A stretch of DNA of 64,000 nt from an uncultured Candidatus Saccharibacteria bacterium (GTDB taxonomy: Bacteria; Patescibacteriota; UBA1384; XYA2-FULL-43-10; 1-14-0-10-43-13): NCBI GenBank assembly GCA_964628585.1, contig CAZVMH010000001.1:64450-128449 (forward strand), written 5' to 3'. The first letter of the stretch is position 1, and the number at the start of each line of letters is the position of its first letter. The translations under genes were made by a program, and so were the position numbers. Positions 4,999-50,700 of the stretch are shown piece after piece. The notes beneath the pieces are model-generated. The model saw nothing but the letters and a program-made list of their open reading frames with translations. It was not told the DNA's origin and ran no database searches.

Positions 4999-6546
4999 TT
5001 ATAATTGTTGTCTATCTATCTTGCGTTCTGTTAAACTAAAAGCGGACAGTATTAGAAGGATAAGAAAGATGAGAACAAATAAGAGAGCAGTTGGAATTAT
5101 AACAAAAGATGGTAAAATACTTCTTTTTAGGCGAGTCAAAGACAACGAAGAATATTTTTCTGGACTATTTTTTATATCTTCAATTAGCTCTTTCCAGTTT
5201 GTCCACTTCCAGTCGGAAGCTTCTTCGGGGTTTAATTCTGGTTCTTTATCGTATCTTCCGACAAAAACATGATCGTATTCGTATTCAGTTAACTTTCCCA
5301 AATTTGCTTTGTAAGTGAAAGAAAAGGTCTCTTTTAGCTCGGTATCTAAACCCATCTCTTCTTTTAATCTTCGGTGGGCCACATCAACAGTCTCTTCGCT
5401 TGGCGCCGGGTGACTGCAACAGGTATTGGTCCACAAGCCAGGAGAGTGATATTTTTCATCTGCTCGTTTTTGCAACATCAACTCGTCTTTCGAATTGAAA
5501 ACAAAGATTGAAAAACATCGGTGCAGTTTTCCATCTCGATGAACTTGCATCTTTTCTCCCGTCCCGATTTCCCTGTCATTCTCATCAACCAAGATTATGT
5601 CGTTCATTTTTAGTATTCTCCGCTTTGAAAAAATACCTGTGAATATTGGGACAGGCAGAAGAGCGAATCCTGCTTGAATTGGACTCCAGCCCAAAGTATT
5701 TTGGAGGAAGAAGGTAAGAACAAAAGACATGCCAATTACAGAAACCATTACAATAAAACTTATTATGTTTGAGGCGGTAAAGGTTTGATTCTGGAAGAGA
5801 TGAAAATCAAGCAGAGAATTTTTTAATCGCTTCTGGTAATAGTAAAGGGCTACCAAAAATAGAAAACCTAAAATCAGAAACAGTTTATTGATTTGTGATA
5901 ACGATAGGGCGATAGTAACAAGTCCAAGAGCAAGAAGCGCCACACTACCATAATCGAGTTTAATTTCTTTATTAGCTGGTAGATCTGGAATATATTTGGA
6001 TGAAATGATTAAGCCTACAATGACAAGTGGAACATTAATTAAAAATAATAAGTGCCAGCCGTAAAACTGACCAATATTAATATTTGACAACATTCCGCCA
6101 ATAATGGGACCGACTAACATACCAGCGGCAAATGTTCCAGCGGTTACAGCAAAAGCTTTCTCTCGTTCTTTCCAGAGATGGGCAATAATTGCCATTGGCA
6201 TAGTATATAGAATAGCAATCGAAATACCTTGGACTGCACGTAATGCAATCATTATTTCAATATTACTGATAAACCCGAGCACTAAAGACGATAGTCCGAA
6301 AAGAGATAGGCCCCAAATATACAATTTTTTAGGTCCAATTTTGTCACCCAATTTGCCCATAAAAATCAAAAAAATTATCAAGGCAAGGGTGAGGGCATTT
6401 GGTATCCATTGGGTGAGAGAAATAGGAATATCTAATGTAGAAGTGATTTTTGGCAAAGCAACATTTAACCCCGTGCTGTCTATGGCACCGAGAAGGTCGG
6501 CAGTTGCAACAGCAACAAGAATAAGGGTTAAATTATTTTTTTTCAT
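4999..6546 (-). CDS. Chimeric protein: an N-terminal MFS (DHA2-like) transporter half of ~8 TM segments, a type-1 isopentenyl-diphosphate isomerase (NUDIX) domain, and a C-terminal TM helix
   Basis: Residues ~1-310 are hydrophobic helices with MFS motifs (GKLGDKIGPKK loop). Residues ~315-480 match IDI type 1 (NTCCSHP, E-rich NUDIX box, W..W). The last 40 aa form a TM helix. The ORF is continuous. Confidence 0.6.
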   Translation of the reverse strand: MKKNNLTLILVAVATADLLGAIDSTGLNVALPKITSTLDIPISLTQWIPNALTLALIIFLIFMGKLGDKIGPKKLYIWGLSLFGLSSLVLGFISNIEIMIALRAVQGISIAILYTMPMAIIAHLWKEREKAFAVTAGTFAAGMLVGPIIGGMLSNINIGQFYGWHLLFLINVPLVIVGLIISSKYIPDLPANKEIKLDYGSVALLALGLVTIALSLSQINKLFLILGFLFLVALYYYQKRLKNSLLDFHLFQNQTFTASNIISFIVMVSVIGMSFVLTFFLQNTLGWSPIQAGFALLPVPIFTGIFSKRRILKMNDIILVDENDREIGTGEKMQVHRDGKLHRCFSIFVFNSKDELMLQKRADEKYHSPGLWTNTCCSHPAPSEETVDVAHRRLKEEMGLDTELKETFSFTYKANLGKLTEYEYDHVFVGRYDKEPELNPEEASDWKWTNWKELIEDIKNSPEKYSSLSLTRLKRSILPSFVIIPTALLFVLIFLILLILSAFSLTERKIDRQQL

Positions 6547-19023: not shown

Positions 19024-22000
19024 ATGTTTAAAAAAGTTGATCCAAAATTGAATCTTCCTGAAGAAGAGGAGAAAGTTCTTAGGTTCTGGGATGAAAACGG
19101 AATTTTTGAGAAGTCTCTCGAAAAAGATAGCCCAAAAGGCAACTTTGTTTTTTATGAGGGCCCTCCGACTGCAAATGGTCATCCTGGTATTCACCATGTG
19201 GAGGCTCGTTCTTTTAAAGATCTTTTTTGTCGTTACAAAACAATGCAGGGCTATTATGTAAAACGAAAAGCTGGTTGGGACACACATGGTTTGCCGGTTG
19301 AATTGCAGGTAGAAAAAGAACTTGGTATTTCTGGCAAGGGTCAGATTGAAACACTTGTTCCTGGCGACAAGAAAGCTTCGATTGAAAAATTTAACAAACT
19401 CTGCAGGGAATCGGTTTGGAAGTTTAAGGGCGAGTGGGAGGAAATGACAGAGCGCATGGCCTATTGGGTAGATATGAATCACCCTTACATTACATATGAT
19501 GCAAACTATATTGAGAGCATTTGGAATATAATGTCTGAGATTGATAAAAAAGGACTTCTATATCGTGGTCACAAGGTCGTGCCATATTGTAATCGTTGCG
19601 GAACTACTCTTTCATCGCATGAAGTAGCACAGGGGTACAAAAATATCGAAGAAGAATCTGTACATATAGTATTAAAGTCAAAAAAAGATCCTGCAATTAA
19701 ATTCTTGGTTTGGACTACGACTCCATGGACGCTGGCAGGCAATGCAGCGATAGCAGTAAATCCTAAGATCGTTTATAGCTTATTGCAGATAGCAGATAGC
19801 AATTCAAAAATTGTTATGGCAAAGAACAGAATAGGTGGTGTTTTAAAAAATATCGATTACAAGGTTATCGAAGAGTTTTCAGGTGAAGAGTTTGTCAGAA
19901 AATACTCTACCGGTGGACAAGATTATGAGCCAATCTACCCAGATGGTGAAAAGTTTGTCGAAGGTGGAGAAAAGTCATACAAAATCATACTTGCCAATTA
20001 TGTTTCTGATTCAGATGGAAGTGGCATAGTTCATATTGCTCCAGCTTTTGGGCAAGATGACTATGTTTGGGGTTATCAAAAAAATCAAATCAAAGTTTTA
20101 AAAACTGTCGACGAAAAGGGGACAGAGCTTGCTGGAGCGGGCAAAGGTAGTTTTGTTAAGAAAGCCGATACCGAAATAAAAGCAGACTTAGAGAAACGAG
20201 AAATTTTATTTAAAACTGAAAAAGTTAAGCACGACTATCCGTTTTGCTGGCGTTGCGACTCCCCTCTTTTATATTTTGCTCGTGACTCTTGGTATATTGC
20301 CTCAAGCAAAATTAAAAACGAACTAGTTGCGAACAACGAACACATTAACTGGAATCCCGCCTACTTGAAGCATGGCCGTTTTGGTAATTGGCTCCAGAAT
20401 ATTGAAGACTGGGCCATCTCACGCGACCGATACTGGGGGACTCCACTTCCTGTCTGGAACTGCCAAAAATGTACCAAGAAAAAAGTGGTGGGTGATTTTA
20501 TGGATTTTAACAAAAGCAAAAATGAAACTATTACAAAACTTATTTTTGTTCGACACGGCGAATCAGAAACTAATGTAGGACATTTCAATTCAATATTACA
20601 CGACAAATGGGGGTTAACTACGCTTGGTAGAACACAAGCCGAGGCTGTTGCCGAAGACCTAAAAGATATTCAGGTTGACGCACTCCTTGTCTCGCCAGTT
20701 TTACGCGCTAAGGAAACAGCCAAGATTATTGAAAATAAGATTGGAATAAAATCTGAAGAAGATGCCCTTATTTCCGAATATGATTTTGGAGAATGGTGTG
20801 AAATAAGTAGAGAAGAACGCCTAAAACTTGAAGAATATAAAAGATACAAAGCAGTAACAACGCTCGAAGAAAAGTATCAATTCAAGCTAGGTGGTGCTGA
20901 GTCAAGAAAAGACGTTGTAACACGTGTAAAAACCTTTCTAGATAAGATTATGAAAAAGTACGAAGGCAAAACTATTGTGGTGGTCAGCCATGGCGGAATT
21001 TTAGCTGCTATTATGAAAAATATTGCCGATATATCCTTAGAAGAATATGATCATGTTGAAGACCATGTTTTACAGGGTCAACCGCATATTCGATATATTA
21101 ACTCAAGGGGCAAGCTTTTTGATCCGCATAAACCATATATTGACGAAATTACTTTTGATTGCGAATGCGGTGGAGAAATGGTTCGAACGCCCGAAGTGCT
21201 AGATGTTTGGCTTGATTCCGGCACTATGCCTTTTTCTCAATACCATTTTCCATTTATTAATAATACTCTTCTCAGAGAGCAATTTCCGGCCGACTTTATA
21301 TCTGAAGCGGTTGACCAAACCAGAGGTTGGTTCTGGACCCTTCTTGCCATTTCAACAATTCTTAAAGGCGAGTCGCCATACAAGAACGTTATCTCCTTGG
21401 GTCATGTTTTGGATGAAAAAGGCAAGAAGATGTCAAAGTCTTTGGGCAATATCATTTTCCCAATGCAAGCATTCGATAAATATGGTGCCGACATTATTAG
21501 ATATTATTTCTTCTGTGTTAATGGACCAGGTGAACCAAAACTCTTTTCTGACAAAGAAGTTACTTCATTATCGAGAAATTTATTCTTAACACTTTGGAAC
21601 GTTTTTTCATTCTTTATTACTTATGCTTCAATTGATAATTTCGAACCAAAGGAAAATATTGAACGCAAAAATATTTTGGATCGATGGGTATTGGCTAAAT
21701 TTAATAAACTGGTTGAAGAAGTAAATGAAGGATTAGACCACTACGATACTTTCAAACCAAGTAACTTAATAATTGAATTTGTCGGTGAACTTTCAACTTG
21801 GTATGTAAGACGATCAAGAAGAAGATTCTGGAAGAGTGAGAACGATAGTGATAAAATTGAAGCTTTTCAAACTTTGTATGAAATTATCATACAACTAGCA
21901 AAGTTGCTGGCACCGTTCACTCCGATGTTTGCTGAAACCATTTATTCTTATTTGCGAACCGAGAAAGATCCAATTTCAATTCACCTAACCGATTATCCAA

Positions 22001-22515
22001 AACCGGTAAAAATGGATGATTTAGTAATTAAAGAAATGGATACGGCCAGAAAGATTGTAGAGGCTGGTCTGTCAAAAAGAGCAAGTGCAGGGATTAAAGT
22101 TCGTCAACCTTTAAGCAAATTAACTTACAATGGTAGTAAATTAGATTCCGAATTAGAAACAATCATTGCCGAAGAAGTAAATGTGAAGTCTGTAGAAAAC
22201 GACTCAAAAATCACAGAGGTAATAATCGACACAGAAATTTCTCCAGAACTGAAAATGGAAGGGACTGCCAGAGAGATAATCCGAAACATCCAATCGCTAC
22301 GAAAGAAGACAGGTTTTGAAGTTGAAGACAGGATCGGTATGGTCTATCAAACAGAATCAAAATTTCTAGCAGATACTCTGGAAAAATTTGAAGAAGTAAT
22401 TAGCAAAGAAATTTTAGCCAAATCGATCAAATCTGGTAAATTAAAATCCGAAGGGACAGAAGAATTCACCATCGATGGCGAGAAAATTCAGATTGGAATT
22501 AACAAAAATAATTGA
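19024..22515 (+). CDS. ileS: Isoleucyl-tRNA synthetase, type 2 (Thermus/eukaryote-like), with a ~190-aa histidine-phosphatase (PGAM-like) domain inserted between the two halves of the zinc knuckle
   Basis: IleRS type-2 motifs PPTANGHPGIHH and KKMSKSLGN, an editing-domain motif GSGIVHIAPAFGQDDY, and a Zn knuckle C480QKC...C713EC. Between the knuckle halves sits a complete histidine-phosphatase domain (IFVRHGESETN, VSPVLRAKET, VVVSHGGI). Total length is 1163 aa. Confidence 0.85.
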   Translation: MFKKVDPKLNLPEEEEKVLRFWDENGIFEKSLEKDSPKGNFVFYEGPPTANGHPGIHHVEARSFKDLFCRYKTMQGYYVKRKAGWDTHGLPVELQVEKELGISGKGQIETLVPGDKKASIEKFNKLCRESVWKFKGEWEEMTERMAYWVDMNHPYITYDANYIESIWNIMSEIDKKGLLYRGHKVVPYCNRCGTTLSSHEVAQGYKNIEEESVHIVLKSKKDPAIKFLVWTTTPWTLAGNAAIAVNPKIVYSLLQIADSNSKIVMAKNRIGGVLKNIDYKVIEEFSGEEFVRKYSTGGQDYEPIYPDGEKFVEGGEKSYKIILANYVSDSDGSGIVHIAPAFGQDDYVWGYQKNQIKVLKTVDEKGTELAGAGKGSFVKKADTEIKADLEKREILFKTEKVKHDYPFCWRCDSPLLYFARDSWYIASSKIKNELVANNEHINWNPAYLKHGRFGNWLQNIEDWAISRDRYWGTPLPVWNCQKCTKKKVVGDFMDFNKSKNETITKLIFVRHGESETNVGHFNSILHDKWGLTTLGRTQAEAVAEDLKDIQVDALLVSPVLRAKETAKIIENKIGIKSEEDALISEYDFGEWCEISREERLKLEEYKRYKAVTTLEEKYQFKLGGAESRKDVVTRVKTFLDKIMKKYEGKTIVVVSHGGILAAIMKNIADISLEEYDHVEDHVLQGQPHIRYINSRGKLFDPHKPYIDEITFDCECGGEMVRTPEVLDVWLDSGTMPFSQYHFPFINNTLLREQFPADFISEAVDQTRGWFWTLLAISTILKGESPYKNVISLGHVLDEKGKKMSKSLGNIIFPMQAFDKYGADIIRYYFFCVNGPGEPKLFSDKEVTSLSRNLFLTLWNVFSFFITYASIDNFEPKENIERKNILDRWVLAKFNKLVEEVNEGLDHYDTFKPSNLIIEFVGELSTWYVRRSRRRFWKSENDSDKIEAFQTLYEIIIQLAKLLAPFTPMFAETIYSYLRTEKDPISIHLTDYPKPVKMDDLVIKEMDTARKIVEAGLSKRASAGIKVRQPLSKLTYNGSKLDSELETIIAEEVNVKSVENDSKITEVIIDTEISPELKMEGTAREIIRNIQSLRKKTGFEVEDRIGMVYQTESKFLADTLEKFEEVISKEILAKSIKSGKLKSEGTEEFTIDGEKIQIGINKNN

Positions 22516-22546
22516 TATCGAACGTAAGTTTGGGCATAATCAAATT

Positions 22547-23935
22547 ATGGAGATGAAACTTTTCAATACATTGGGACGCAAACAGGAAATCTTTAAGCCG
22601 ATCAAAAAAAATGAAGTCGGTATTTATTCCTGTGGCCCAACAGTTTATTGGAACCAGCACATCGGAAACATGTATGCCTACGTTGAGTGGGATTTGCTTA
22701 ATCGAACTCTAAAATATCTTGGCTATAAAACAACCTGGGTCATGAATATTACTGATGTAGGCCATTTAACTTCAGACGAAGACACCGGAGAAGACAAACT
22801 GGAAAAGGGCGCCAAGAGCGAGGGGATCTCTGTCTGGAAGATCGCCGATAAATATATTGGTCAATTTAAGGAAAGCATGAATCTTCTTAATATTAAAGAA
22901 CCAGACGAATTGCCTCGAGCAACAGACCATATTGCAGAACAAATCAAGATGATAGAGGAGATGGAAAAAAGAGGCTTTACCTATAAAACTAAAACAGGAA
23001 TTGTTTTTGATACTTCTAAATTCCCTGATTATGCCAAGTTTGCCAATTTAAATCTTGAGGAACAAAAAGCTGGCTCTCGTGTCGAAGTAGATGAGGAAAA
23101 GAAGAATCCTTGGGATTTTTTGCTCTGGATTACAAATCAGCCAAATCATGTAATGCAATGGGATTCACCTTGGGGCAAGGGCTTCCCTGGCTGGCATATT
23201 GAATGTACAGCCATGTCAACAAAGTATCTTGGCAATAAATTTGATATTCATACTGGTGGTAAAGAACATATCCCAGTTCATCATACCAACGAAATTGCTC
23301 AGGCTTACGGAGCTTTTGGCGAGCAGACAGCCAACTATTGGCTTCACAACGAGTGGGTTACCTTTGGTGGAGATAAAATCGCAAAGAGTGCTGGCAGTGC
23401 AATTTTAATTACAGATTTAGAGGAAAAGGGGTTCTCTCCGCTTTCTTATCGATATTTGATTATGACCTCACATTACCGGACCGGTTTAAATTTTACCTGG
23501 GAAAGCTTGGAGAGTGCACAAATCGCTCTAAATCGATTAAAAAATTCAATTAAAAAACTTCAGGAAGCATCAAACGATAATATCAAATCCAATCCAAAGG
23601 AAGACATAAACTGGGATGCAAAGTTCAAAAATGCGATCGCAGACGATCTGGGCACTCCACAAGCCATTGCAATTTTATGGGACATGTTAAAAGGGGATAT
23701 GAGCGCCAAAGAAAAAATCGAATTAGTGGCAAAGTGGGATAAAGTCTTCGGGCTAGACTTGTTAGAAATCAAAAAAGAAGAAATACCTGCCGAAGTATCC
23801 GAATTGGCTAAAGAACGCGCCAATGTCAGAAAAGAGAAAGCTTGGCAAAAGTCAGATGAACTAAGAGATAAAATATCGGAACTAGGTTACGAGGTGATAG
23901 ACACTTCAAGAGGATTCGAAATTAGAAAGAAATAA
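22547..23935 (+). CDS. cysS: Cysteinyl-tRNA synthetase
   Basis: The N-terminus MEMKLFNTLGRKQEIF..CGPTVYWNQHIGN (HIGH region) and a KIAKSAG (KMSKS-like) motif. The start could be 22547 or 22553; the longer ORF from 22475 overlaps ileS. Confidence 0.8.
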   Translation: MEMKLFNTLGRKQEIFKPIKKNEVGIYSCGPTVYWNQHIGNMYAYVEWDLLNRTLKYLGYKTTWVMNITDVGHLTSDEDTGEDKLEKGAKSEGISVWKIADKYIGQFKESMNLLNIKEPDELPRATDHIAEQIKMIEEMEKRGFTYKTKTGIVFDTSKFPDYAKFANLNLEEQKAGSRVEVDEEKKNPWDFLLWITNQPNHVMQWDSPWGKGFPGWHIECTAMSTKYLGNKFDIHTGGKEHIPVHHTNEIAQAYGAFGEQTANYWLHNEWVTFGGDKIAKSAGSAILITDLEEKGFSPLSYRYLIMTSHYRTGLNFTWESLESAQIALNRLKNSIKKLQEASNDNIKSNPKEDINWDAKFKNAIADDLGTPQAIAILWDMLKGDMSAKEKIELVAKWDKVFGLDLLEIKKEEIPAEVSELAKERANVRKEKAWQKSDELRDKISELGYEVIDTSRGFEIRKK

Positions 23936-23949
23936 CGAAAGGACATAGC

Positions 23950-24951
23950 ATGAAAAAAGTCATACTTACAGGCGACAGACCAACTGGAAAACTTCATCTA
24001 GGACATTTTATAGGCTCCCTTCAAAATAGAGTAAAACTTCAGGACGAATATGAGGAGTATATTCTTATCGCAGATATGCAAGCTCTGACTGACAATGCTG
24101 AAAATCCAGAAAAAGTTAGTAGCAATATTTTAGAGGTTGTCTTAGATTATTTGGCAGTTGGAATTGACCCAGATAAAGCCACGATCTGTCTTCAATCAGA
24201 GCTGCCAGCGCTTGCAGAGTTAACAATGTACTATTTAAATCTTGTTACATTGGCTCGTCTGCAAAGGAATCCAACAGTAAAAGATGAAATGAAGCAAAAA
24301 GGTTTTGAGGCCAATGTTCCGGTCGGTTTTTTAACTTACCCTATTAGTCAAGCAGCCGATATTACTGCTTTTAAAGCCGGTTTTGTTCCAGTGGGAGAAG
24401 ATCAGGTACCCGTTTTAGAACAGACGAACGAGATAGTTAAAAAATTTAATGCTAGTTATAAGACAGATGTTTTAGTTGAATGCGAGCCAATTTTGTCGAA
24501 GGTTGGAAGACTTCCTGGCACAGATGGCAGTGCTAAGATGAGCAAGTCACTAGAAAATTGCATTTATCTTTCTGACTCTGATGAGGAAATAAAGAAAAAG
24601 GTAATGAGCATGTACACAGATCCTGCCCATATCAAAGCAGAAGATCCAGGCAAGATTGAAGGTAACACAGTGTTCATTTATCTTGATGCCTTTGATCTAG
24701 AGAAAGAGGCAGTACAAAAACTAAAAGAACAATATCAAAAAGGTGGCTTAGGCGACGTGGCGGTTAAAGAAAGATTGGTTGGCGTATTGCAGAATCTAAT
24801 TAAACCAATTAGAGAAAGAAGAGAAGCGCTAGCAAAAGATCCTAAAAAAATAATGGAAATTGTTAAAGCCGGTACGATAAAAGCGCAAAAAGTGACCGAA
24901 GTAACTCTCGAAGAGGTCAAAAAGGCAATGAAATTAAACTATTTTAACTAA
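23950..24951 (+). CDS. trpS: Tryptophanyl-tRNA synthetase
   Basis: 333-aa ORF with ILTGDRPTGKLHLGHFIG (HIGH) and KMSKSLEN (KMSKS) motifs and TrpRS-like length. Confidence 0.85.
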   Translation: MKKVILTGDRPTGKLHLGHFIGSLQNRVKLQDEYEEYILIADMQALTDNAENPEKVSSNILEVVLDYLAVGIDPDKATICLQSELPALAELTMYYLNLVTLARLQRNPTVKDEMKQKGFEANVPVGFLTYPISQAADITAFKAGFVPVGEDQVPVLEQTNEIVKKFNASYKTDVLVECEPILSKVGRLPGTDGSAKMSKSLENCIYLSDSDEEIKKKVMSMYTDPAHIKAEDPGKIEGNTVFIYLDAFDLEKEAVQKLKEQYQKGGLGDVAVKERLVGVLQNLIKPIRERREALAKDPKKIMEIVKAGTIKAQKVTEVTLEEVKKAMKLNYFN

Positions 24952-24952
24952 T

Positions 24953-27151
24953 ATGAAACAGTTCGAAAAAACCTGGCAACACGATAAATTTGAAGAAAAA
25001 ATATACTCTGATTGGGAAAAATCGGGATTTTTTCGGCCAGAATACAGAATACAGAATACAGATAACAGTAAAACTGAACTTCAATATGATCGTGAAAAAG
25101 ACGGGAATCCTTTTGTTATTGCAATGCCACCACCAAATGTTACGGGTAAACTTCACCTGGGTCATTCACTGGTGTTAACACTTGAAGACATTATGATTCG
25201 GTTTCATAGAATGAAAGGGCAGCCTTCTCTTTGGATTCCTGGGATGGACCACGCTGGTATTGCGACCCAAACGGTGGTAGATAAAGCATTAAAGAAAAAA
25301 GGCATCAACAAAAACGATCTTGGACGCGAAAAGTTTATTGAGGAAGTTTGGAAATGGAAAAAGGAATATGGCGACATTATTCTAGAACAGACTCGCAAAA
25401 TGGGTGCCTCCTGTGACTGGTCGCGTGAACGATTCACTATGGATGAGGGATTATCAAATTCTGTAAAAGTAGCTTTTGTTGATTTCTATAAAAAAGGTTT
25501 AATCTATCGCGGTGAATACGTTGTGAACTGGTGTCCTAGATGCCAAACTGCCATTGCTGACGACGAAGTAGAACATATTGAGCAAAAAACCAAGCTTTAC
25601 TATTTTAAGTATGACAAAAATTTCCCAATCACCATTGCCACAACCAGACCAGAAACAAAGTTGGGCGATGTTGGGGTGGCGGTTAATCCAAATGATAAAA
25701 GATACAAAAATTACATCGGTAAAAAATTCGAAGTAAATATTGACGGCGTAAAGCGAAAGATTCTTGTTTTTGGCGATAGATCGGTAGATGAAAAATTTGG
25801 CACAGGCGCCGTTGGCGTAACTCCGGCCCACTCACTTATCGACTGGAAAATGGCAGAGGAGAACAAACTTCCCGTAATAAAAGTTATAGACAAATATGGC
25901 AAAATGACCGAGGAGGCAGGTAAATACGCAGGACTTAAAGCAAAAGAAGCGGGCGATAAATTAGTTGAATATTTTAAAGCAAATGGTCTTCTAGAAAAAG
26001 AAGAAGACTACGACAACAATCTTTCCACCTGTTATAGATGCAACACCGCCATTGAACCAATTCCTTCACTCCAATGGTTTGTAAAAATGAAACCTTTGGC
26101 CGAAAAGGCCAAAGGGGCGGTTAAATCCGGGCAAATTAAAATAATTCCAGAGCAGTATGAAAAAGTATACTTTCACTGGATGGACAATATCCGAGACTGG
26201 TGTATCTCGCGGCAACTTTGGTGGGGACATCAAATTCCAGTTTGGTATAAAGGCAAAGAAGTTTATTGCGGACTGGAAGCTCCAAAAGGAAACGGTTGGG
26301 AGCAGGATCCGGATGTTTTAGACACCTGGTTCTCGTCTGGTCTCTGGCCGTTTTCGACATTGGGTTGGCCCGATAAAACAAAAGATTACAATTACTTTTT
26401 TCCGAACACTGTAATGGAAACGGGAAAAGACATTCTTTTTTTCTGGGTTGCTAGAATGATTATGATGAGTTTGGAACTAACCGGCAAGATTCCGTTTGAA
26501 ACAGTTTATTTGCATGGTATGGTTCAAGATGAGCATAACAAGAAAATGAGCAAATCCTCTGGCAATGCTCTTGACCCACTGACGCTGATTGAAAAATATG
26601 GCACAGACGCAATTAGAATGTCCTTGGTTGTTGGGGCGACTCCTGGCCAGAATATTGCCATGAGCGACGCAAAGATTAAAGGCTACAGAAATTTCTCCAA
26701 TAAAATATGGAATGCCTCACGTTTTGTAACACTTAGAGTTTCAGAGGGCGATCTGCAGGCAGGTGAAGTTGGTCCTCAAAAAATTGAAAACCTAAATATT
26801 GATGCCAAAACATTGACCGAAGCAGACAAAGAAATTTTGTCTTTGCATAAAGAAATCGTTTCGGCCGTAACAGAAAAAATCGAAAAGTTTCGTTTCTCGC
26901 AAGCGGGCGAAGAGCTTTACGAATATTTCTGGCATCAATTTTGTGATATTTACATCGAAAAAGCAAAATTACAGCTTGAAGGAGAAAATAAGGAAAATAC
27001 TAAAAAGATTTTAATTAAAATACTATCAGAATCACTTGCCATGCTTCACCCTTTCGTACCATTTGTTACAGAAGCGGTCTGGCAAGAACTCCGCGAAATT
27101 TACCCAAAACTTTCAAAATCAATAATGATCTCTAGCTGGCCCAATATTTAA
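24953..27151 (+). CDS. valS: Valyl-tRNA synthetase (short form, 732 aa, lacking the C-terminal coiled-coil)
   Basis: PPPNVTGKLHLGH, the editing-domain motifs TTRPETKLGD and GTGAVGVTPAHSLID, and KMSKSSGN. An in-frame tandem heptamer (gaataca)x3 lies near the 5' end. Confidence 0.8.
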   Translation: MKQFEKTWQHDKFEEKIYSDWEKSGFFRPEYRIQNTDNSKTELQYDREKDGNPFVIAMPPPNVTGKLHLGHSLVLTLEDIMIRFHRMKGQPSLWIPGMDHAGIATQTVVDKALKKKGINKNDLGREKFIEEVWKWKKEYGDIILEQTRKMGASCDWSRERFTMDEGLSNSVKVAFVDFYKKGLIYRGEYVVNWCPRCQTAIADDEVEHIEQKTKLYYFKYDKNFPITIATTRPETKLGDVGVAVNPNDKRYKNYIGKKFEVNIDGVKRKILVFGDRSVDEKFGTGAVGVTPAHSLIDWKMAEENKLPVIKVIDKYGKMTEEAGKYAGLKAKEAGDKLVEYFKANGLLEKEEDYDNNLSTCYRCNTAIEPIPSLQWFVKMKPLAEKAKGAVKSGQIKIIPEQYEKVYFHWMDNIRDWCISRQLWWGHQIPVWYKGKEVYCGLEAPKGNGWEQDPDVLDTWFSSGLWPFSTLGWPDKTKDYNYFFPNTVMETGKDILFFWVARMIMMSLELTGKIPFETVYLHGMVQDEHNKKMSKSSGNALDPLTLIEKYGTDAIRMSLVVGATPGQNIAMSDAKIKGYRNFSNKIWNASRFVTLRVSEGDLQAGEVGPQKIENLNIDAKTLTEADKEILSLHKEIVSAVTEKIEKFRFSQAGEELYEYFWHQFCDIYIEKAKLQLEGENKENTKKILIKILSESLAMLHPFVPFVTEAVWQELREIYPKLSKSIMISSWPNI

Positions 27152-27175
27152 AATAGACCAAAGGAATTATCGGAG

Positions 27176-27865
27176 GTGTTAATGATAGGCATGAAACCTG
27201 GACCGGAAGTTGGAGGAGAATATAAATATTTAACAAACAGAACAGATAGAGAGGCAATTTTTGATTGTACTAAAAATTTAGTTGAATATGTTTATAACAA
27301 TCAAATTCCTCATATTGTATTATTTGATCGAAGTGCAAGACCGATGAGTACTGCAATATTGAAATATTGGATGGAAACTTATCCAAATGATCCTCGACCA
27401 GAGATAGAATTTATCAATCCTGATGGTTTTCGTGATTTTGCCTTTTATAGACAAAAAGATGCTGATTTAGAGAGTCATAAGAACGTTGTGAAGCAAGAAT
27501 TTGTACAAAATTACCCAAAATTAATGGCGGACAGAGATAAATCGATTTTACTTTTTGATGTTTGTATACATTCAGGCGATACAATGGAGCCAGTTGTTAT
27601 TGCTCTTAAAGAATTCGGCTTTACAAATTTAATAATTGGTTCGGCTAAATCTGAAGATATGGGATCGGCAGTTACACCAGATGTCACATTCATTGATGAA
27701 TCTCAGAGTCTGTGTGAACCTTTCCCTCAAAGCGTAGTTGAGAAAACAAACGATAGTGTTCACACCAAGAGACGGGTTGCAAATAGCCAATTTCTAAAAG
27801 AGGCTCGTGGTGCTAGACAGGAGATTAAACAAATGATTGAAGAAGGTACTGATAAAACCATATAG
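27176..27865 (+). CDS. Phosphoribosyltransferase-domain protein (PRT type I fold), function unknown
   Basis: 229-aa ORF with a PRPP-binding-like motif (ILLFDVCIHSGDTM) and a good SD (GGAGGTG). Confidence 0.45.
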   Translation: MLMIGMKPGPEVGGEYKYLTNRTDREAIFDCTKNLVEYVYNNQIPHIVLFDRSARPMSTAILKYWMETYPNDPRPEIEFINPDGFRDFAFYRQKDADLESHKNVVKQEFVQNYPKLMADRDKSILLFDVCIHSGDTMEPVVIALKEFGFTNLIIGSAKSEDMGSAVTPDVTFIDESQSLCEPFPQSVVEKTNDSVHTKRRVANSQFLKEARGARQEIKQMIEEGTDKTI

Positions 27866-31311: not shown

Positions 31312-33561
31312 CTAATAGTTTCGGATTTTTGCGTCGAGAGCTTTTTCTATAGAGCTAATAATCTTTTCAACAATTTCTTCGGCTTCTTTGTCGGTCAGAG
31401 TTTTTGATTCAGCTTGAAGATAAATGTGGTAAGCTACATTCTTTTTGTCTTCGCCAAATTTGTCGGAAGCGAACTCATCAAAAAGTTCGACTCTATTAAT
31501 TAGTTCCGATTCTTCATATATCAAATTTGTAATTTTGTCTGCTTCAACACTGGCGTCGACGATAAAAGCGACGTCTCGAGTAATGGATGGGTATTTTGAA
31601 ACGGCTCGGTAATGAATTTGTTTGTCAGAAAGTGTGAGCTCAATATTATCTTTATTAATTTTTGAGTTCTTATTAATATCATCAATTTTGATCTCAAAGG
31701 TATAGGTGACCGGTTTTTTGATTTTAAATTTAAGCAGATCATCTCGAGAAAGTTCGTTAACTTGAATATCAAGATCCAATTTCAATTTATCTTTCAAATT
31801 AGAAATAGCAGATTCGATTTCTTTTTTGGCGTTCTTTCCGCTTGAGGCAAGGGCCAAATGGGCTTCTTCGGAGCTGGTTGTGAAAACATTGCCAATTTCG
31901 AAGATTAAAACTGGGTCAAAAATCGGATTTTTGGCAACGGCTTTCAAAAGTGAAGGCAATAAAAATTTTCGCAGATATTTATTTTCTGGTTGAACTGGAT
32001 TAGCAACTTCTAATAGATCGGTTTTGTCTAATTTAAGCGCTTCCAAGTCGGCTTCGCTTAAAAACGAATAAGTGTTAACTTCAGAAAAGCCGGCCTCAAC
32101 TAAAACATCTTTCATGTGCTCTTTAAAATGGTAAATTCCACTTTTTGGCTTTTCTGTCTTTGGTGTCTCAACCTTGGCAATATTATTCAAATCAAATATT
32201 CGCCCAATTTCCTCGGCCAAATCTTGCCAGATGGTAACATCATGACGCCATGAAGGGGCTTGAACCATATTATCTTTCAGTACGAAGCCCAAGTTTTCAA
32301 GATATTTCTTGGCGTCAGCCTCTTTGATGTCTGTTCCAAGTAAATTATTAATGCGCTCCAATTCAAATGGAACCCAAGTGTTTTCATAAGTGCTAGCAAT
32401 ATTTGTTTTCTTTCCAGTAATTTTCCCACCACAGAGTTCAACTATCAGACTAGTCGCTTTGTCTAAGGCTTTCTCGGTCATCTCAGGGTCAATTCCTCTT
32501 TCAAAACGGTAGCTAGCTTCAGTTGCCAGCCCCAACTTTTTAGCAGTTTGGCGAATATTTACAGGATTAAATTCAGCAGATTCCAAAATTATCGAAGTTG
32601 TGTTATCGTCAACTTCAGAATTTAGTCCACCCATAACACCAGCTAGCGCAACGGCTTTTTCTGGATCGGCAATCACGAGCATTTCTTCACTCAAAATTCG
32701 TTTCTCATTATCAAGAGTGATAAATTCTTCATCTTTTTTGGCTTCTCGAACAACAATATTGTTATCAGATATTTTCTTGGCATCAAAAGCATGAAGGGGT
32801 TGGCCTAAATCAAACATTATGTAGTTGGTGATATCTACCAAATTATTGATCGATTTTCCGTCCATTGCCTCAATTTTTTTGACTAGCCAGTCAGGAGAAG
32901 GACCAATTTTAATATCAGAAATGGTGATTCCACAGTAGCGAGGACATTTTTCAGGAGATAAAATTTCAATTAAAAAGTCAGAATCCTTGTCATCGATTTT
33001 CGGAATATCAAGATCCAATTTCTTGTCCAATACGGCTGAAAGTTCTCGCGCCATACCAACATGCGAAAGACAATCGCCACGATTTGGCGTGATTTCAAGG
33101 TCAAAAATTGCATCGCTATCGAGTAGATCGACAACTGATTTGCCCAACGGTGTATTGGCGGGCAATTGCATTATGCCTTCGTGATTTTCGGAAATGCCGA
33201 GTTCCTTTTCACTGCAAAGCATGCCGAAGGATTTTTCACCTCGGATCAAAGCTTCTTTTATCTCAAAATCAGAAAATTTAGTACCAATCTTGGCTAGTGG
33301 CACAATCTGATCGACAGCAATATTTGGGGCGCCACAGACAATATTAAATTCTTCTTTGCCGTCGGTAACCCTGGCAAGTTGAAGTTTGTCGGCATTAGGA
33401 TGTTTTTTGACTTCTAAAATTTTTACGGCGACAACTTTTTTGTCAATTTTGCCCAAAACTTCATCTACTAGAGAGCCTGAAAAAGTCAAAAGATCGGCAA
33501 TCTCTTCGTTTGATTTATCTGTCTTAACATATTCAGTTAACCAACTTCGTAATATCTTCAT
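31312..33561 (-). CDS. pheT: Phenylalanyl-tRNA synthetase beta subunit
   Basis: 749-aa ORF with the N-terminus MKILRSWLTEYV and PheT-like B3/4, B5 and FDX-ACB segments. It is coupled to pheS through an ATGA overlap. Its 3' end contains repeat copy B (31331-31500). Confidence 0.85.
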   Translation of the reverse strand: MKILRSWLTEYVKTDKSNEEIADLLTFSGSLVDEVLGKIDKKVVAVKILEVKKHPNADKLQLARVTDGKEEFNIVCGAPNIAVDQIVPLAKIGTKFSDFEIKEALIRGEKSFGMLCSEKELGISENHEGIMQLPANTPLGKSVVDLLDSDAIFDLEITPNRGDCLSHVGMARELSAVLDKKLDLDIPKIDDKDSDFLIEILSPEKCPRYCGITISDIKIGPSPDWLVKKIEAMDGKSINNLVDITNYIMFDLGQPLHAFDAKKISDNNIVVREAKKDEEFITLDNEKRILSEEMLVIADPEKAVALAGVMGGLNSEVDDNTTSIILESAEFNPVNIRQTAKKLGLATEASYRFERGIDPEMTEKALDKATSLIVELCGGKITGKKTNIASTYENTWVPFELERINNLLGTDIKEADAKKYLENLGFVLKDNMVQAPSWRHDVTIWQDLAEEIGRIFDLNNIAKVETPKTEKPKSGIYHFKEHMKDVLVEAGFSEVNTYSFLSEADLEALKLDKTDLLEVANPVQPENKYLRKFLLPSLLKAVAKNPIFDPVLIFEIGNVFTTSSEEAHLALASSGKNAKKEIESAISNLKDKLKLDLDIQVNELSRDDLLKFKIKKPVTYTFEIKIDDINKNSKINKDNIELTLSDKQIHYRAVSKYPSITRDVAFIVDASVEADKITNLIYEESELINRVELFDEFASDKFGEDKKNVAYHIYLQAESKTLTDKEAEEIVEKIISSIEKALDAKIRNY

Positions 33562-47788: not shown

Positions 47789-50700
47789 TTGTGGGGAGGG
47801 ATTTTGCTTAGACGCCTACAACTTTGGCTTTCTACTTTACCAAAAAAGAAACTAGTTGGTCTTTTTAGTGTCTTCGTCTTTGTTCTAGTATTGGGAGCAT
47901 ACTTCATATATCAAAAATTCTCTGCCGATGAATTTATTGATACCCGTATGAACATATCTGGACGGGTTTTTGATGCCGATGCAAAAACGTCTCTTGCTGG
48001 AGTCAAAGTCTCATTCATATCAAGAAATTACGACGGTCTTGGCACAACTCCAGCACCCCTTGAGTATACTTCTGACGCACTGGGTGCTTTTAATGTTACT
48101 CTACCAGATGAAGTAACCTATGATCTGGTTCTTTTTGAAAAAGAAGGCTACTTTGATATTGAGGGTACATATGCCTTAGAATCGGCCACTTCGGAGCCAA
48201 AAGAAGTAACACTTGCTATTACCATGAAACCAGGTTTTGGCAGGGAAAATGTACATCTGCAGACCATTATGCCAAAATGGAATCTAATATCTTCTCCTCT
48301 TGTTCCAGAAGACAGCAATCCAGCAAGCTTTTTTACCTATTACAGCGTAGCTGAAGATAACCTAAATATTAAAAAAAGCCAGCTTAATCTCACCGATAGC
48401 AACAAAGATACCGAGCTTTATCGTTGGGAAAACGCCAATCAGGGATTAAAAGTATATGATCAATGGTCTTCTGATGATTTTGGTCCAATAGAAGCCGGTG
48501 CCGGATATTGGCTCGAATACAAGGGCGAAACACCCAAAACTATTGTTATGCGAGGTAAACAGGAGAACTCTCTTCCAAACGGCACCTTTAATATTGCTAA
48601 AGCAGGTTGGGCGCTGATTGGTCTGCCTACCATAAATCAAATGCGAATGTCCGAGATCGGAATTGAAAAAGATGGCCAGCTAATGACCATTAATGAAGCT
48701 TTTGGAAAAGGAGAAGTAGAAGAGATATATTATTGGGATAATGGTAACCAAGGACTTTTAAACTACAACGATTGGTCAGGCGAAGAAGCTCTAGCTGAAG
48801 TCGGTTCTGGCTACTGGATAAAGACCAAAAATGATAATACAAAAATCTTTACAGGTCAGACTTTTATTGGTCATATGCAAACACCTAACGGCATCCCACT
48901 CCCGGGTGTCAATATCGGCTTTATGGCAGATAGCACCAACACCTACAACCCTAGCCAGCTTGCCACAACTGACGCAAATGGCAACTTTTCAATGACCAAT
49001 CTTAATCCTGCCTACAAATGGATTACGATACAAAAAAATGGTTATGTAAAAATTGAAGCTACAGTTACTACCAAAGAATCCGCGACGCAATATCTTGGTG
49101 GTCTAAACTTTCTTCTAGAGCCAGGTGAGGGAACGAAATATGTTCAAATTGTCCCGCTTAAAAAGGATCAAAAAACTAATTTCGGACTCTCAATCATACC
49201 TAGTAGCAGTACCACTCTTAATACAATTGTAAAAGAGGGCGATAATTATGTACAAAAACCACTCCAAGACCAAATCTCTGCCTTCGAGCTTTCAAAAGAA
49301 GAATTCATCCCAATGGAAGCAGATAAATTTACTAACTCTGATGGTGATCAACTAACACAGGAATTAACTGGTTCAACCTCAGGATCTATAGATAGTAATA
49401 CTTATATATTTGGTGGTATCGACAAAGCAACCAATAAGCCGACTGACATGATCTCATACTATGACCCGGTTTCCCAATCAATTAATACACTAAATACGAA
49501 GTTGCCAAAACCACTAACCGGAGCAGGAAGCTTTACTCTGCCGGGGGAAAATACAATTATCATCTTTGGCGGAGCTACTACTGACAGTCAAAAATCTGAT
49601 TCCATTTATGCTTTATCAACCGACAATGACACAATCAACCGAATCGGCTCTACTCCTGCACACGAACGGTACCAAGTTGTTAATGTAGATGGTAATTTAG
49701 TTCTAATTGGTGAGGATTCCAATGCCGTTACTGTACATCTTCTAAATCTAAAGTCTCTGACTCAACAGATTAAATCAGGCAACTGTCTTGTTAAAGATGC
49801 CACCTGTAGCCTCAACCTGGTCTCGAGCCCCTGGGCCCCAACAACAAAAATCGGTATCGGTTCAACTCCGTATTACAAAAATGGCAAACTATACTTTTTT
49901 GGTGGTGTAAAAAATGGTAATCCAGTTAATTCGATTTATGCTGTTCCAACCAACCCAATGCCAACAAATGATTCTTCTCTAAATCAATTGTCCCAAACCC
50001 TGCCTTACCCCGTAGCATATTCTTCATCCCTAGCCCTGTCTGACTCAAGTAAACTCTATCTAATGGGTGGAAAATCAGAGAATGGCGATCTAACCGATAA
50101 GATAACAGCTATTTCGTTTGCAGATCCCAGCAATATTGGTGTTTCTCAGATTGACCACAAATTGTCCAGACCGTCGGGCGATGTTGCTTTCAGCGCAGAT
50201 GCTTGGGATAATCTTCATGTCTTTTCCTCTTCAGCCTATACTGAACCAGATATTACCATAAATGAAAACGGAGATATTAATGAAGGTGAAGTTCCAGAGA
50301 TAAAATACAATCAAGTTATCTCTCCTAACTCTTCACTTAAACCGGGTCAGGTCTATTCTATTACCCCTTCTTCTTCATATGCTTTAGTAATCGTCTCATC
50401 TGTTGATTCGCCAGAAAGACCTCTTGATTTTGAGACTGCCAGTTTGCCAACCCAATCTTTTATGGTTTCTAAACCAAACAGTGAATACTTTATTACTTCT
50501 TCTTCATTAGGAGAAGAACCCTTAAAACATTACAAGTTTACTTTTGAAGGAGAAGAATACAATCTCAAGCAAGCTGCTGAACAAAATCTCATTAATTCAA
50601 AAATCAAGATTGATGATAGAGAAATTGATCTTGCCAGTCTACCAACACAAGACTTAAGCAAAACATATGTCTCACCGGGCAGTGTACTGTCTTTTACCGA

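What the first reader, a model, noticed from the sequence alone, without database searches (positions are those of the whole stretch)
20515..21100. IleRS carries a complete histidine-phosphatase (PGAM-like) domain inserted inside its zinc knuckle
The ileS ORF (19024-22515) is a type-2 IleRS. In Thermus-like IleRS the two halves of the Zn knuckle (here C480-Q-K-C and C713-E-C) are separated by only ~35 residues. Here they are separated by ~230 residues. The extra residues form a full histidine-phosphatase fold: the catalytic RHG (IFVRHGESETN), a phosphate-binding SPxxRAxET, and the second His in VVVSHGGI. The flanking IleRS segments (WGTPLPVW ... FDPHKPYIDEI..C-E-C..RTPEVLDVWLDSG) are intact and in frame, so this is a genuine domain insertion, not a gene fusion or frameshift. 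I am not aware of an aminoacyl-tRNA synthetase carrying an internal PGAM-family phosphatase. The domain could act on a phosphorylated nucleotide or tRNA end (2',3'-cyclic or 3'-phosphate), or on aminoacyl-adenylate, Ap4A or ppGpp-like by-products. All of these are speculative.
Basis: partly seen in the sequence, partly recalled or inferred. Interest (0 to 1): 0.8.

Follow-up and report, generated by a model that had tools for sequence, protein, structure and literature searches.

The report
Phosphatase domain nested inside isoleucyl-tRNA synthetase
The enzyme that loads isoleucine onto tRNA in this tiny-genome (CPR/Patescibacteria) bacterium has a complete, apparently active phosphatase built into one of its surface loops; the same design recurs in hundreds of related uncultured bacteria, also in the valine enzyme, and no paper found here describes it.

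Summary
ORF 19024-22515 (+) is an intact type-2 IleRS of 1163 aa. A ~200-aa histidine-phosphatase domain (Pfam His_Phos_1, E = 3e-35, aa 506-678) sits in frame at the tip of the zinc-binding CP3 hairpin, between C480-x2-C483 and C713-x-C715.

It is not an artefact and not unique. More than 100 clusters (at 50% identity) of Patescibacteria IleRS carry the module at exactly this point. About 70 ValRS of Gracilibacteria/Peregrinibacteria carry it at the homologous CP3 site.

The catalytic set R510/H511/R561/E585/H656 is intact in 152 of 154 site-1 IleRS modules. dN is low. The IleRS synthetic and editing motifs are invariant. The predicted fold (pLDDT 91-92) matches short phosphatases (CobC, PspA, GpgP), not true phosphoglycerate mutases.

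The module is evolutionarily mobile. It is patchy among close relatives, shows at least 4 gain/loss events in this clade, has been replaced between sister genes, occurs in 1-3 copies and at second sites, and has stand-alone homologues just as close.

Best reading: an active small-substrate phosphomonoesterase hosted by a fully functional synthetase. The substrate is unknown, and coupling to aminoacylation is possible but unproven. No literature on it was found.

The parts
19024..22515 (+). ileS: type-2 isoleucyl-tRNA synthetase, 1163 aa, hosting the nested phosphatase
   Evidence: ORF; TIGR00392 884 bits > 621 cut-off; PDB 8c8w E=5e-248; AF2 model pLDDT 91.4, pTM 0.83
19180..19197 (+). HIGH-type signature (HPGIHH, aa 53-58) of the synthetic site
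   Evidence: Translation; H57 and H58 invariant in 78 IleRS with and without insert
19711..19731 (+). Editing-domain (CP1) threonine-rich motif WTTTPWT, aa 230-236
   Evidence: Translation; W230, T231-233, W235, T236 invariant, as are H337 and D346
20461..20472 (+). First half of the CP3 zinc knuckle, C480-Q-K-C483
   Evidence: Translation; Cys kept in ~84% of 142 insert-bearing sequences; all four Cys present in 118 of 142; in 22 of the other 24 all four are replaced, and two keep two
20473..20514 (+). Native CP3 N-arm (TKKKVVGDFMDFNK, aa 484-497) leading into the insert
   Evidence: Aligns with 'KVVSSLSEVNN' of insert-less orthologues; the W478-to-RHG spacing is 28-32 aa in 130 of 143 sequences
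20515..21117 (+). Inserted histidine-phosphatase module, aa 498-698
   Evidence: Absent as one block from insert-less orthologues; Pfam PF00300 aa 506-678 (nt 20539-21057) E=3e-35; pLDDT 88-97 in 10-residue blocks; Foldseek CobC TM 0.84, rmsd 2.0 A
20551..20559 (+). R510-H511-G512: phosphate-binding Arg and the nucleophilic His
   Evidence: R and H 100%, G 95% conserved in 142 sequences
20704..20706 (+). R561, second phosphate-binding Arg (SPVLRAKET)
   Evidence: 100% conserved
20776..20778 (+). E585, predicted general acid/base (position of E83/E89 in PhoE/dPGM, assigned from memory of those enzymes)
   Evidence: E 90% plus D 9%; invariant in alignment A2 with stand-alone homologues
20989..20991 (+). 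H656, second catalytic His (VSHGG)
   Evidence: 100% conserved
21118..21168 (+). Native CP3 C-arm (FDPHKPYIDEITFD) and second half of the zinc knuckle, C713-E-C715
   Evidence: D700, H702, P704, D707 90-99% conserved and also present in insert-less IleRS; Cys ~84%
21427..21441 (+). KMSKS loop, aa 802-806
   Evidence: Translation; K802, M803, S804, K805 invariant

Best explanation
This is a genuine nested-domain protein. A fully functional type-2 IleRS carries a catalytically competent histidine phosphatase of the short PhoE/CobC/PspA-like branch, inserted as an independently folding unit at the tip of the zinc-binding CP3 hairpin. Shown: the architecture; the fold; the integrity and strict conservation of both active sites; purifying selection on the insert; the wide and recurrent distribution in Patescibacteria IleRS and ValRS; and the module's mobility (patchy presence, replacement, tandem copies, second sites, equally close stand-alone genes). 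Inferred: the module works by the standard two-step mechanism of its superfamily. H511 attacks a terminal phosphate held by R510, R561 and H656; E585 protonates the leaving group; the phospho-histidine is then hydrolysed. The substrate is most likely a small phosphomonoester such as a nucleotide or sugar phosphate. I think the phosphatase most likely does the same job as its stand-alone homologues, with the synthetase acting mainly as a permissive, constitutively expressed scaffold. Direct channelling with the aminoacylation site seems less likely. The recurrent choice of IleRS and ValRS keeps a functional link to these two enzymes open.
For: Architecture and fold. Active phosphatase: R510/H511/R561/H656 100%, E585 90% (+9% D), E626/R634 99% in 142 sequences. 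The R-H-R-E/D-H set is intact in 152/154 site-1 modules, 6/6 second tandem copies and 5/5 site-2 copies, and in 187/191 IleRS modules in the larger set. Purifying selection: dN 0.125 in the insert against 0.04-0.06 in the core, pN/pS ~0.15. Functional host: HIGH, KMSKS and editing residues are invariant with or without the insert. Phosphatase rather than mutase: best TM and rmsd to CobC, PspA and GpgP, while dPGMs superpose at ~7 A; dPGM models score far below cut-off. Autonomy: stand-alone 200-aa genes are as close to the insert (42-52%) as inserts of sister IleRS are to each other. Sister genes at 84% core identity differ by presence or absence, with 100/100 bootstrap. P0049/P0051 cores are 82% identical but their inserts only 42%. 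Copy number is 1-3, and second insertion sites exist. Breadth.
Against: No substrate can be assigned. The domain fails every curated equivalog cut-off: CobC 93-98 bits against 163, PspA 90-95 against 350, archaeal dPGM 86-92 against 225. Pure passenger status fits poorly with three observations. Every multidomain host found for this subfamily is a class Ia synthetase (180/180; IleRS or ValRS). The same CP3 tip was colonised separately in IleRS and ValRS. The N-side spacing is tightly fixed. All three hint at a constrained geometry or a functional tie. I could not inspect model coordinates, so the position of the phosphatase pocket relative to the tRNA or ATP sites is unknown. The host census is biased by how the queries were built.
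Confidence: 0.6

Rival explanations
1. The phosphatase is mechanistically coupled to the synthetase. It would act on something the enzyme makes or binds. Candidates are a nucleotide by-product or alarmone (Ap4A/Ap3A breakdown products, pAp, pGp or ppGpp-derived nucleotides, AMP), or a 3'-phosphate on damaged tRNA(Ile)/tRNA(Val) that must be removed before charging. This would give IleRS and ValRS a built-in clean-up or repair activity.
For: All 180 long hosts of this phosphatase subfamily in my sample are class Ia synthetases. The CP3 tip was taken independently in IleRS and ValRS. N-side spacing is fixed at 28-32 aa. The full-length model has pTM 0.83, suggesting a defined arrangement. Some CPR IleRS also carry a NUDIX domain (P0122) or GNAT domains (P0221). 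NUDIX plus histidine phosphatase is the pairing of mycobacterial MutT1, a nucleotide-sanitising enzyme (family name seen; its biochemistry is from memory). CobC, the best structural match, acts on a nucleotide-like substrate.
Against: The module is dispensable between near-identical synthetases: P0050 and P0070 share 84% core identity. It can be swapped for a 42%-identical copy. It occurs in variable copy number and at other sites. Its substrate-cap region is the most variable part. Equally close stand-alone genes exist. No His_Phos gene lies near ileS in three insert-less relatives. No superfamily member I know of acts on RNA 3' ends (from memory). About a quarter of ValRS copies lack the catalytic Glu.
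Confidence: 0.25
2. The domain is the organism's cofactor-dependent phosphoglycerate mutase (a glycolytic enzyme) embedded in IleRS. This would fill a gap in the reduced central metabolism of these bacteria.
For: The superfamily includes dPGM. JGI labels some stand-alone homologues 'probable phosphoglycerate mutase'. The short archaeal dPGM model NF038349 gives 86-92 bits.
Against: All dPGM models are far below cut-off: NF038349 86-92 bits against 225, TIGR01258 43 against 81.7. dPGM structures superpose at ~7 A rmsd, against 2.0-2.2 A for CobC and PspA. PDB dPGMs match only the two end segments of the domain by sequence. The motif after E585 is Y-D-F-G, not the R-H-Y-G of dPGM (sequence; the dPGM motif is from memory).
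Confidence: 0.06
3. The domain is a protein phosphatase (SixA- or PGAM5-like). It would remove phosphate from histidine, serine or threonine on IleRS itself or on a partner protein, as a regulatory switch.
For: SixA model TIGR00249 gives a weak partial match of 31.8 bits. Members of the superfamily do act on proteins (from memory).
Against: The SixA score is well below its cut-off of 74.5 and covers only the first 70 residues. The closest folds are small-molecule phosphatases. No kinase or phosphotransfer partner appears in the neighbourhood.
Confidence: 0.05
4. The insert is an inactive structural spacer (a pseudo-enzyme), or an assembly or annotation artefact.
For: In the ValRS lineage, 23 of 88 copies lack the catalytic Glu and 10 also lack the second His, so degeneration does happen elsewhere.
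Against: In the window protein and in 187/191 IleRS modules the full catalytic set is intact. dN is low. The same architecture appears in well over 100 independent assemblies from NCBI, JGI, ENA and Logan. The identical protein is in two sources. The reading frame is uninterrupted and GC content is even.
Confidence: 0.03

Closest known systems
Short histidine phosphatases of superfamily branch 1: CobC alpha-ribazole phosphatase (6e4b, 6nru), PspA phosphoserine phosphatase (4ij5), GpgP Rv2419c (4pza), riboflavin-pathway HFP (9mmh), PhoE (1h2e)
   Same: Same ~200-residue fold: TM 0.75-0.84, rmsd 2.0-3.0 A. Same catalytic Arg-His-Arg-Glu-His set. Sequence E-values down to 4e-16.
   Different: Those are free-standing proteins. 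Here the domain is nested inside another enzyme. It reaches none of their family cut-offs, so their substrates cannot be transferred to it.
Type-2 IleRS (T. thermophilus 1ile, Priestia IleRS2 8c8w, MupA/MupB-like) and its zinc-binding CP3 subdomain
   Same: Full-length homology (E ~1e-245), the same CP3 C-x2-C ... C-x-C knuckle, and the DUF5915 C-terminal domain. CP3 is zinc-binding in T. thermophilus and structurally variable among IleRSs (PMC7191050).
   Different: About 200 extra residues at the hairpin tip. The protein does not meet the MupA/MupB resistance-model cut-offs (816 and 800 bits against 1900).
IleRS with an N-acetyltransferase domain (NCBIfam NF040702, ileS_w_GNAT)
   Same: A curated precedent for an IleRS that hosts an extra enzyme domain. 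Some CPR IleRS carry both GNAT and the phosphatase (P0221).
   Different: A different guest domain, at a different site in P0221. The window protein scores 299 bits against a cut-off of 1999. No curated model exists for the phosphatase-bearing form, which NCBI's annotation names only 'class I tRNA ligase family protein'.
Bifunctional proteins with a histidine-phosphatase domain: mycobacterial MutT1 (NUDIX + His_Phos) and Rv2228c-type RNase H/acid phosphatase
   Same: A branch-1 phosphatase joined to a nucleic-acid or nucleotide enzyme. Matches to NF005567 (80-84 bits) and NF052459 (weak) appear. P0122 combines NUDIX and His_Phos within an IleRS.
   Different: Those are end-to-end fusions, not nested insertions. 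The scores are below their cut-offs (326 and 475). Their biochemistry is cited from memory.
Lineage-specific insertions in the catalytic domain of class Ia synthetases (CP1 editing domain, CP2, CP3, the leucine-specific domain of LeuRS)
   Same: The same principle: the Rossmann fold tolerates large inserted modules in its connective peptides. Synthetases are known as preferred insertion hosts (PMC13114784).
   Different: The known inserts serve aminoacylation or editing. This one is a complete enzyme of an unrelated superfamily with its own active site.

Membership tests
Histidine phosphatase superfamily, branch 1 (Pfam PF00300) | Profile score above the curated cut-off | tested here: met
   122 bits (127 for the excised segment) against a cut-off of 21.7, covering profile positions 1-169 of 194
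Histidine phosphatase superfamily, branch 1 (Pfam PF00300) | RHG motif with the nucleophilic His, second Arg, second His and acidic proton donor | tested here: met
   R510, H511, G512, R561, E585, H656 are present and 90-100% conserved in 142 homologous inserts and invariant against 43 stand-alone homologues
Histidine phosphatase superfamily, branch 1 (Pfam PF00300) | Alpha/beta fold of the superfamily | tested here: met
   AF2 model pLDDT 91.6; Foldseek probability 1.00 and TM up to 0.84 to solved members
Histidine phosphatase superfamily, branch 1 (Pfam PF00300) | Phosphatase or mutase activity through a phospho-histidine intermediate | not testable with these tools
   Needs an enzyme assay with the H511A control
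Cofactor-dependent phosphoglycerate mutase (dPGM) | Score above the curated cut-off of a dPGM model, and a dPGM-like structure | tested here: not met
   NF038349 86-92 bits against 225; TIGR01258 43 against 81.7; other gpmA models 20-48 against 305-421; rmsd ~7 A to dPGM structures
Alpha-ribazole phosphatase CobC (TIGR03162) / phosphoserine phosphatase PspA (NF045917) | Score above the equivalog cut-off | tested here: not met
   CobC 92.6-97.9 bits against 162.9; PspA 90-95 against 350. The fold is closest to these, so it resembles them without being a member
Isoleucyl-tRNA synthetase (TIGR00392 equivalog), type 2 | Equivalog score; HIGH and KMSKS signatures; CP1 editing motifs; type-2 C-terminal domain | tested here: met
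   884 bits against 621.4; HPGIHH aa 53-58, KMSKS aa 802-806, WTTTPWT aa 230-236, all invariant in the family; DUF5915 at aa 1031-1161; best PDB hits are IleRS2 and T. thermophilus
Isoleucyl-tRNA synthetase (TIGR00392 equivalog), type 2 | Isoleucine-specific aminoacylation of tRNA(Ile) | not testable with these tools
   Inferred from homology and intact motifs only
Mupirocin-resistance IleRS MupA/MupB (NF000257/NF000258) | Score above the exception-model cut-off | tested here: not met
   800 and 816 bits against 1900
IleRS with GNAT domain (NF040702) | Score above the cut-off; a GNAT domain present | tested here: not met
   299 bits against 1999; no acetyltransferase Pfam hit in the window protein

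The most novel reading that the evidence does not exclude
IleRS and ValRS of Patescibacteria are bifunctional by design. The CP3-nested phosphatase (joined in some lineages by NUDIX and GNAT modules) would work on a product or substrate of the synthetase itself. One option is clearing a nucleotide by-product or alarmone made at the active site. Another is removing a 3'-phosphate from damaged tRNA(Ile)/tRNA(Val) before charging. That would make these the first aminoacyl-tRNA synthetases with a built-in phosphatase activity tied to translation quality control or signalling, in organisms that lack most conventional regulators.
Probability: 0.22. Interest if true: 0.85.

Novelty: new variant of a known kind. 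Interest (0 to 1): 0.6.

Why it matters
Aminoacyl-tRNA synthetases are among the best-studied enzymes. Their added domains have repeatedly turned out to carry real biology, such as editing, signalling and complex assembly. Here a complete second enzyme, with a strictly conserved active site, sits inside the catalytic domain of an essential synthetase across a large part of the Patescibacteria/CPR radiation. It has been captured separately by IleRS and ValRS at the same structural spot. That makes it a robust and cheap experiment to set up, needing one recombinant protein, one point mutant and one deletion. It gives a natural example of a permissive insertion site (the CP3 tip) for protein engineers. 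It may also help explain how organisms with ~1-Mb genomes organise housekeeping chemistry. On the practical side, the annotation pipeline names these proteins only 'class I tRNA ligase family protein', so ileS or valS can look missing in metabolic reconstructions of these genomes. If the phosphatase turns out to be an unrelated passenger, the finding is still a clear case study of domain mobility, but of moderate interest.

Tried and rejected
- **Misassembly, chimera or frameshift:** rejected. The frame is uninterrupted, GC content is even, the identical protein is in two sources, and more than 100 independent assemblies share the architecture.
- **One-off curiosity:** rejected.
- **Gene fission, or an adjacent stand-alone gene in insert-less relatives:** three loci with ±10 kb of flank show no His_Phos gene.
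- **Pathway hints from neighbours of stand-alone homologues:** the closest ones (P0001, P0175, P0178) lie on contigs of 0.8-1.4 kb with no informative neighbours. P0003 is in an unrelated context.
- **Genome-collection scan for named organisms:** The single-protein scan returned only ordinary IleRS genes hit through the 'DCECGGEM' flank, and not the source genome.
- **AFDB fold search:** the library is not installed.
- **dN/dS:** synonymous sites are saturated (pS 0.57-0.75). Only dN and pN/pS are usable.
- **Model geometry:** I could not read model coordinates, so the distance and orientation between H511 and the synthetic site or tRNA path could not be measured.
- **RNA elements in the window:** no Rfam family and no tRNA gene.
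- **Literature:** nine full-text searches with different wordings found nothing on a phosphatase inside IleRS or ValRS. The library lacks most subscription journals, so absence is not proof.
Full report
**1. The observation**

The window holds an uninterrupted ORF at 19024-22515 (+) of 1163 aa. It is an isoleucyl-tRNA synthetase. The NCBIfam ileS equivalog gives 884 bits against a cut-off of 621. The best solved relatives are the type-2 enzymes Priestia megaterium IleRS2 (8c8w, E = 5e-248) and T. thermophilus IleRS (1ile). The C-terminus is the DUF5915 domain.

Pfam His_Phos_1 (PF00300) matches aa 506-678 at E = 3.3e-35 and splits the tRNA-synt_1 match in two. In the alignment to 8c8w, about 210 residues of the query replace a 19-residue linker between residues 467 and 486. 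GC content is the same in the insert and its flanks.

**2. Where exactly the insert sits**

Published IleRS structures call this region the CP3 subdomain. It connects CP2 to the second half of the Rossmann fold. It carries a zinc-binding motif in T. thermophilus IleRS, and its topology differs between IleRSs (PMC7191050).

Insert-less orthologues read '...C-x2-C-xx-KVVSSLSEVNN|VDPHKPFIDE...C-x-C'. In the window protein the module (aa 498-698, nt 20515-21117) sits exactly at the bar, at the tip of the hairpin. Very distant insert-bearing IleRSs have it at the same point.

Across 205 relatives, the distance between the flanking anchors (YWGxPxP ... DVWxDSG) falls into three classes:

| Anchor-to-anchor length | Proteins | Reading |
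|---|---|---|
| 25-75 aa | 59 | no insert |
| 225-300 aa | 142 | one module |
| 425-475 aa | 4 | two tandem modules |

The four knuckle cysteines are all present in 118 of 142 insert-bearing sequences. In 22 of the other 24 all four are replaced, and two keep two of them. The spacing from W478 to the RHG motif is 28-32 residues in 130 of 143 sequences. Most length variation lies inside the domain's cap region.

**3. Both enzymes look functional**

*The phosphatase.* Conservation across 142 homologous inserts:

| Residues | Conservation |
|---|---|
| R510, H511, R561, H656 | 100% |
| E626, R634 | 99% |
| G512 | 95% |
| E585 | 90% (+9% Asp) |

- The R-H-R-E/D-H set is intact in 152 of 154 site-1 modules, 6 of 6 second tandem copies and 5 of 5 site-2 copies.
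- In the larger set it is intact in 187 of 191 IleRS modules.
- Against the 88%-identical orthologue P0048 (locus L002), dN is 0.125 in the insert and 0.04-0.06 in the core. pN/pS is about 0.15 against 0.07-0.10. Synonymous sites are saturated, so only these ratios are usable.

*The synthetase.* In a 78-sequence alignment of IleRSs with and without the insert, several motifs are invariant:
- the HIGH-type histidines (H57, H58);
- K802-M803-S804-K805;
- the editing motif W230-T231-T232-T233, plus H337 and D346.

*Structure predictions.*
- The full-length AlphaFold2 model has mean pLDDT 91.4 and pTM 0.83, with the insert region at 88-97 in 10-residue blocks.
- The domain-only model has pLDDT 91.6.

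**4. What kind of histidine phosphatase**

- By sequence, the closest solved proteins are PspA phosphoserine phosphatase (4ij5, E = 4e-16), a histidine-family phosphatase of riboflavin synthesis (9mmh), CobC (6nru, 6e4b), PhoE (1h2e) and GpgP (4pz9).
- By fold, CobC is best (TM 0.83-0.84, rmsd 2.0-2.1 Å), followed by PspA (rmsd 2.2 Å) and GpgP. True dPGM mutases superpose at about 7 Å.
- No curated functional model reaches its cut-off: CobC 93-98 bits against 163, PspA 90-95 against 350, archaeal dPGM 86-92 against 225, TIGR01258 43 against 82, SixA 32 against 75.

The domain is therefore a member of the superfamily and of its short phosphatase branch. It is not a dPGM. Its substrate cannot be read from homology.

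**5. It is a widespread, recurrent trait**

- A full-length search returned the identical protein (NCBI and Logan, on a 187-kb contig) and close orthologues with the insert at 61-88% identity.
- It also returned about 40 orthologues of about 960 aa without the insert, at 65-74% core identity.
- It then returned dozens of insert-bearing IleRSs of 1110-1240 aa at about 45% identity.
- Where named, these come from Candidatus Berkelbacteria, Moranbacteria, Uhrbacteria, Nealsonbacteria and Parcubacteria. NCBI calls them 'class I tRNA ligase family protein'.
- An exhaustive HMMER scan of 1.84 billion representatives used the junction-plus-insert segment as query. More than 100 of the best 150 clusters (at 50% identity) align across both flanks and the insert in one stretch, at about position 450-740 of proteins of about 1100-1250 aa.
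- All 180 long proteins in my sample that carry this phosphatase subfamily are class Ia synthetases.
- Two of them are valyl-tRNA synthetases. A follow-up search showed 73 of 120 ValRS relatives with one to three modules, named Peregrinibacteria and Gracilibacteria.
- In ValRS the main insertion point is again just after 'WWGHQIPVW' and before KMSKS, which is the homologous CP3 tip. A minority have a site upstream of WCISR.
- The ValRS modules form their own lineage. In 87 of 88 cases the nearest neighbour is another ValRS module, at about 33% identity to IleRS modules. About a quarter lack the catalytic Glu.
- The window's own ValRS (24953-27151) has no insert.

Other IleRS variants exist:
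- a second module after KMSKS (P0171, P0260, P0275);
- a NUDIX domain at aa 220-338 (P0122);
- GNAT domains (P0221).

**6. The module is evolutionarily mobile**

- In a neighbour-joining tree of the IleRS core with the insert removed, the window's clade contains four separate insert-bearing lineages among about 40 insert-less genes.
- In 100 bootstrap replicates the insert-bearing genes were never monophyletic, and four state changes were always needed.
- P0050 (with insert) pairs with P0070 (without) in 100 of 100 replicates, at 84% core identity.
- The junction in insert-less genes has a uniform length. Many independent deletions would not be expected to leave that. It points instead to exchange of alleles by homologous recombination. 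This is inference.
- Core and module identities correlate overall (Pearson r = 0.64 over 4560 pairs).
- The sister genes P0049 and P0051 are a strong exception: cores 82% identical, modules 42%. P0049's module is closest to the stand-alone gene P0001 at 52%.
- P0001 is a true 200-aa free-standing gene.
- P0001, P0175 and P0178 are as close to the window's module (42-46%) as modules of sister IleRSs are (41-51%).
- They share the clade-specific long cap segment.

**7. How it most likely works**

*Shown:* a functional IleRS hosts a folded phosphatase that is under selection and has a complete catalytic set.

*Inferred from the established mechanism of the superfamily:* H511 attacks a terminal phosphate held by R510, R561 and H656. 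E585 protonates the leaving group. The phospho-histidine is then hydrolysed.

Four things make me think the phosphatase does the same job as the stand-alone enzyme, on a small phosphomonoester, with the synthetase serving mainly as a permissive, constitutively expressed scaffold (confidence about 0.6 for the whole statement):
- equally close stand-alone genes exist;
- the module is dispensable and replaceable between near-identical hosts;
- copy number and insertion site vary;
- the substrate cap is variable.

Three things keep a functional tie to aminoacylation alive (about 0.25):
- IleRS and ValRS are the only hosts seen;
- the same CP3 tip was captured separately in both;
- the N-side spacing is fixed.

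The tie could be clearing a nucleotide by-product or repairing a tRNA 3' end. I could not inspect model coordinates, so the geometry test was not possible.

The remaining readings are unlikely or excluded:
- a glycolytic mutase;
- a protein phosphatase;
- a pseudo-enzyme;
- an artefact.

**8. Novelty**

Nine full-text searches found no description of a histidine phosphatase inside IleRS or ValRS. A 2026 survey of domain insertions mentions synthetases as hosts only for editing domains (PMC13114784).

NCBI has a curated model for IleRS with a GNAT domain (NF040702) but none for this form. The architecture is visible in precomputed Pfam annotations of public proteins. So the finding is undescribed rather than undiscoverable. 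I file it as a new variant of a known kind (a synthetase with an added domain), with interest 0.6.

**9. Limits**

- The trees are distance-based.
- The host census is biased by query design.
- The literature library lacks most subscription journals.
- No enzymology or coordinate-level structural analysis was possible.

Noticed in passing
window 24953-27865 (+): The window's valS is only 732 aa and matches the ValRS profile at positions 1-697 of 860 in one stretch, with no phosphatase insert. The next ORF (27176-27865, 229 aa) has no Pfam or NCBIfam hit. It may be a detached or very divergent C-terminal part of ValRS.
   Followed up: partly
window 4999-6546 (-): An MFS transporter (aa 17-306) is fused to a NUDIX-fold isopentenyl-diphosphate isomerase (NF002995, 155 bits, above its cut-off of 127). 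This is an unusual transporter-enzyme fusion.
   Followed up: partly
window 19024-27151 (+): Four synthetase genes lie head to tail: ileS, cysS (22475-23935), trpS (23950-24951) and valS (24953-27151). pheT is nearby at 31312-33561 (-). The 88%-identical relative L002 also has cysS directly after ileS. Insert-less relatives have a different neighbourhood: an RNase H gene shortly upstream and ftsW/rodA downstream.
   Followed up: partly
P0122 aa 220-338; P0221 aa ~305-413 and ~965-1000 (related proteins, not in the window): Some Patescibacteria IleRS carry, besides the phosphatase, a NUDIX domain or GNAT acetyltransferase domains. IleRS therefore appears to be a general host for small housekeeping-type enzyme modules in this group.
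   Followed up: partly
P0171, P0260, P0275 (IleRS); P0170, P0276, P0318-P0431 (ValRS): Further His_Phos copies occur at a second IleRS site after KMSKS, and as 1-3 copies in the ValRS of Gracilibacteria and Peregrinibacteria, giving proteins up to 1626 aa. In ValRS, 23 of 88 copies lack the catalytic Glu and 10 also lack the second His, so some copies may be inactive.
   Followed up: partly
P0191, P0292, P0211 and about 15 others: Free-standing tandem di-domain proteins of 405-450 aa, made of two intact His_Phos modules, are close relatives of the inserts. In my neighbour-joining domain tree they lie next to the second tandem copies and some of the second-site copies of IleRS, while other second-site copies fall among the first-site inserts.
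   Followed up: no
window 47789-52789 (+): A 1666-aa ORF carries Kelch-repeat and CarboxypepD_reg-like domains. It is probably a large surface protein.
   Followed up: no
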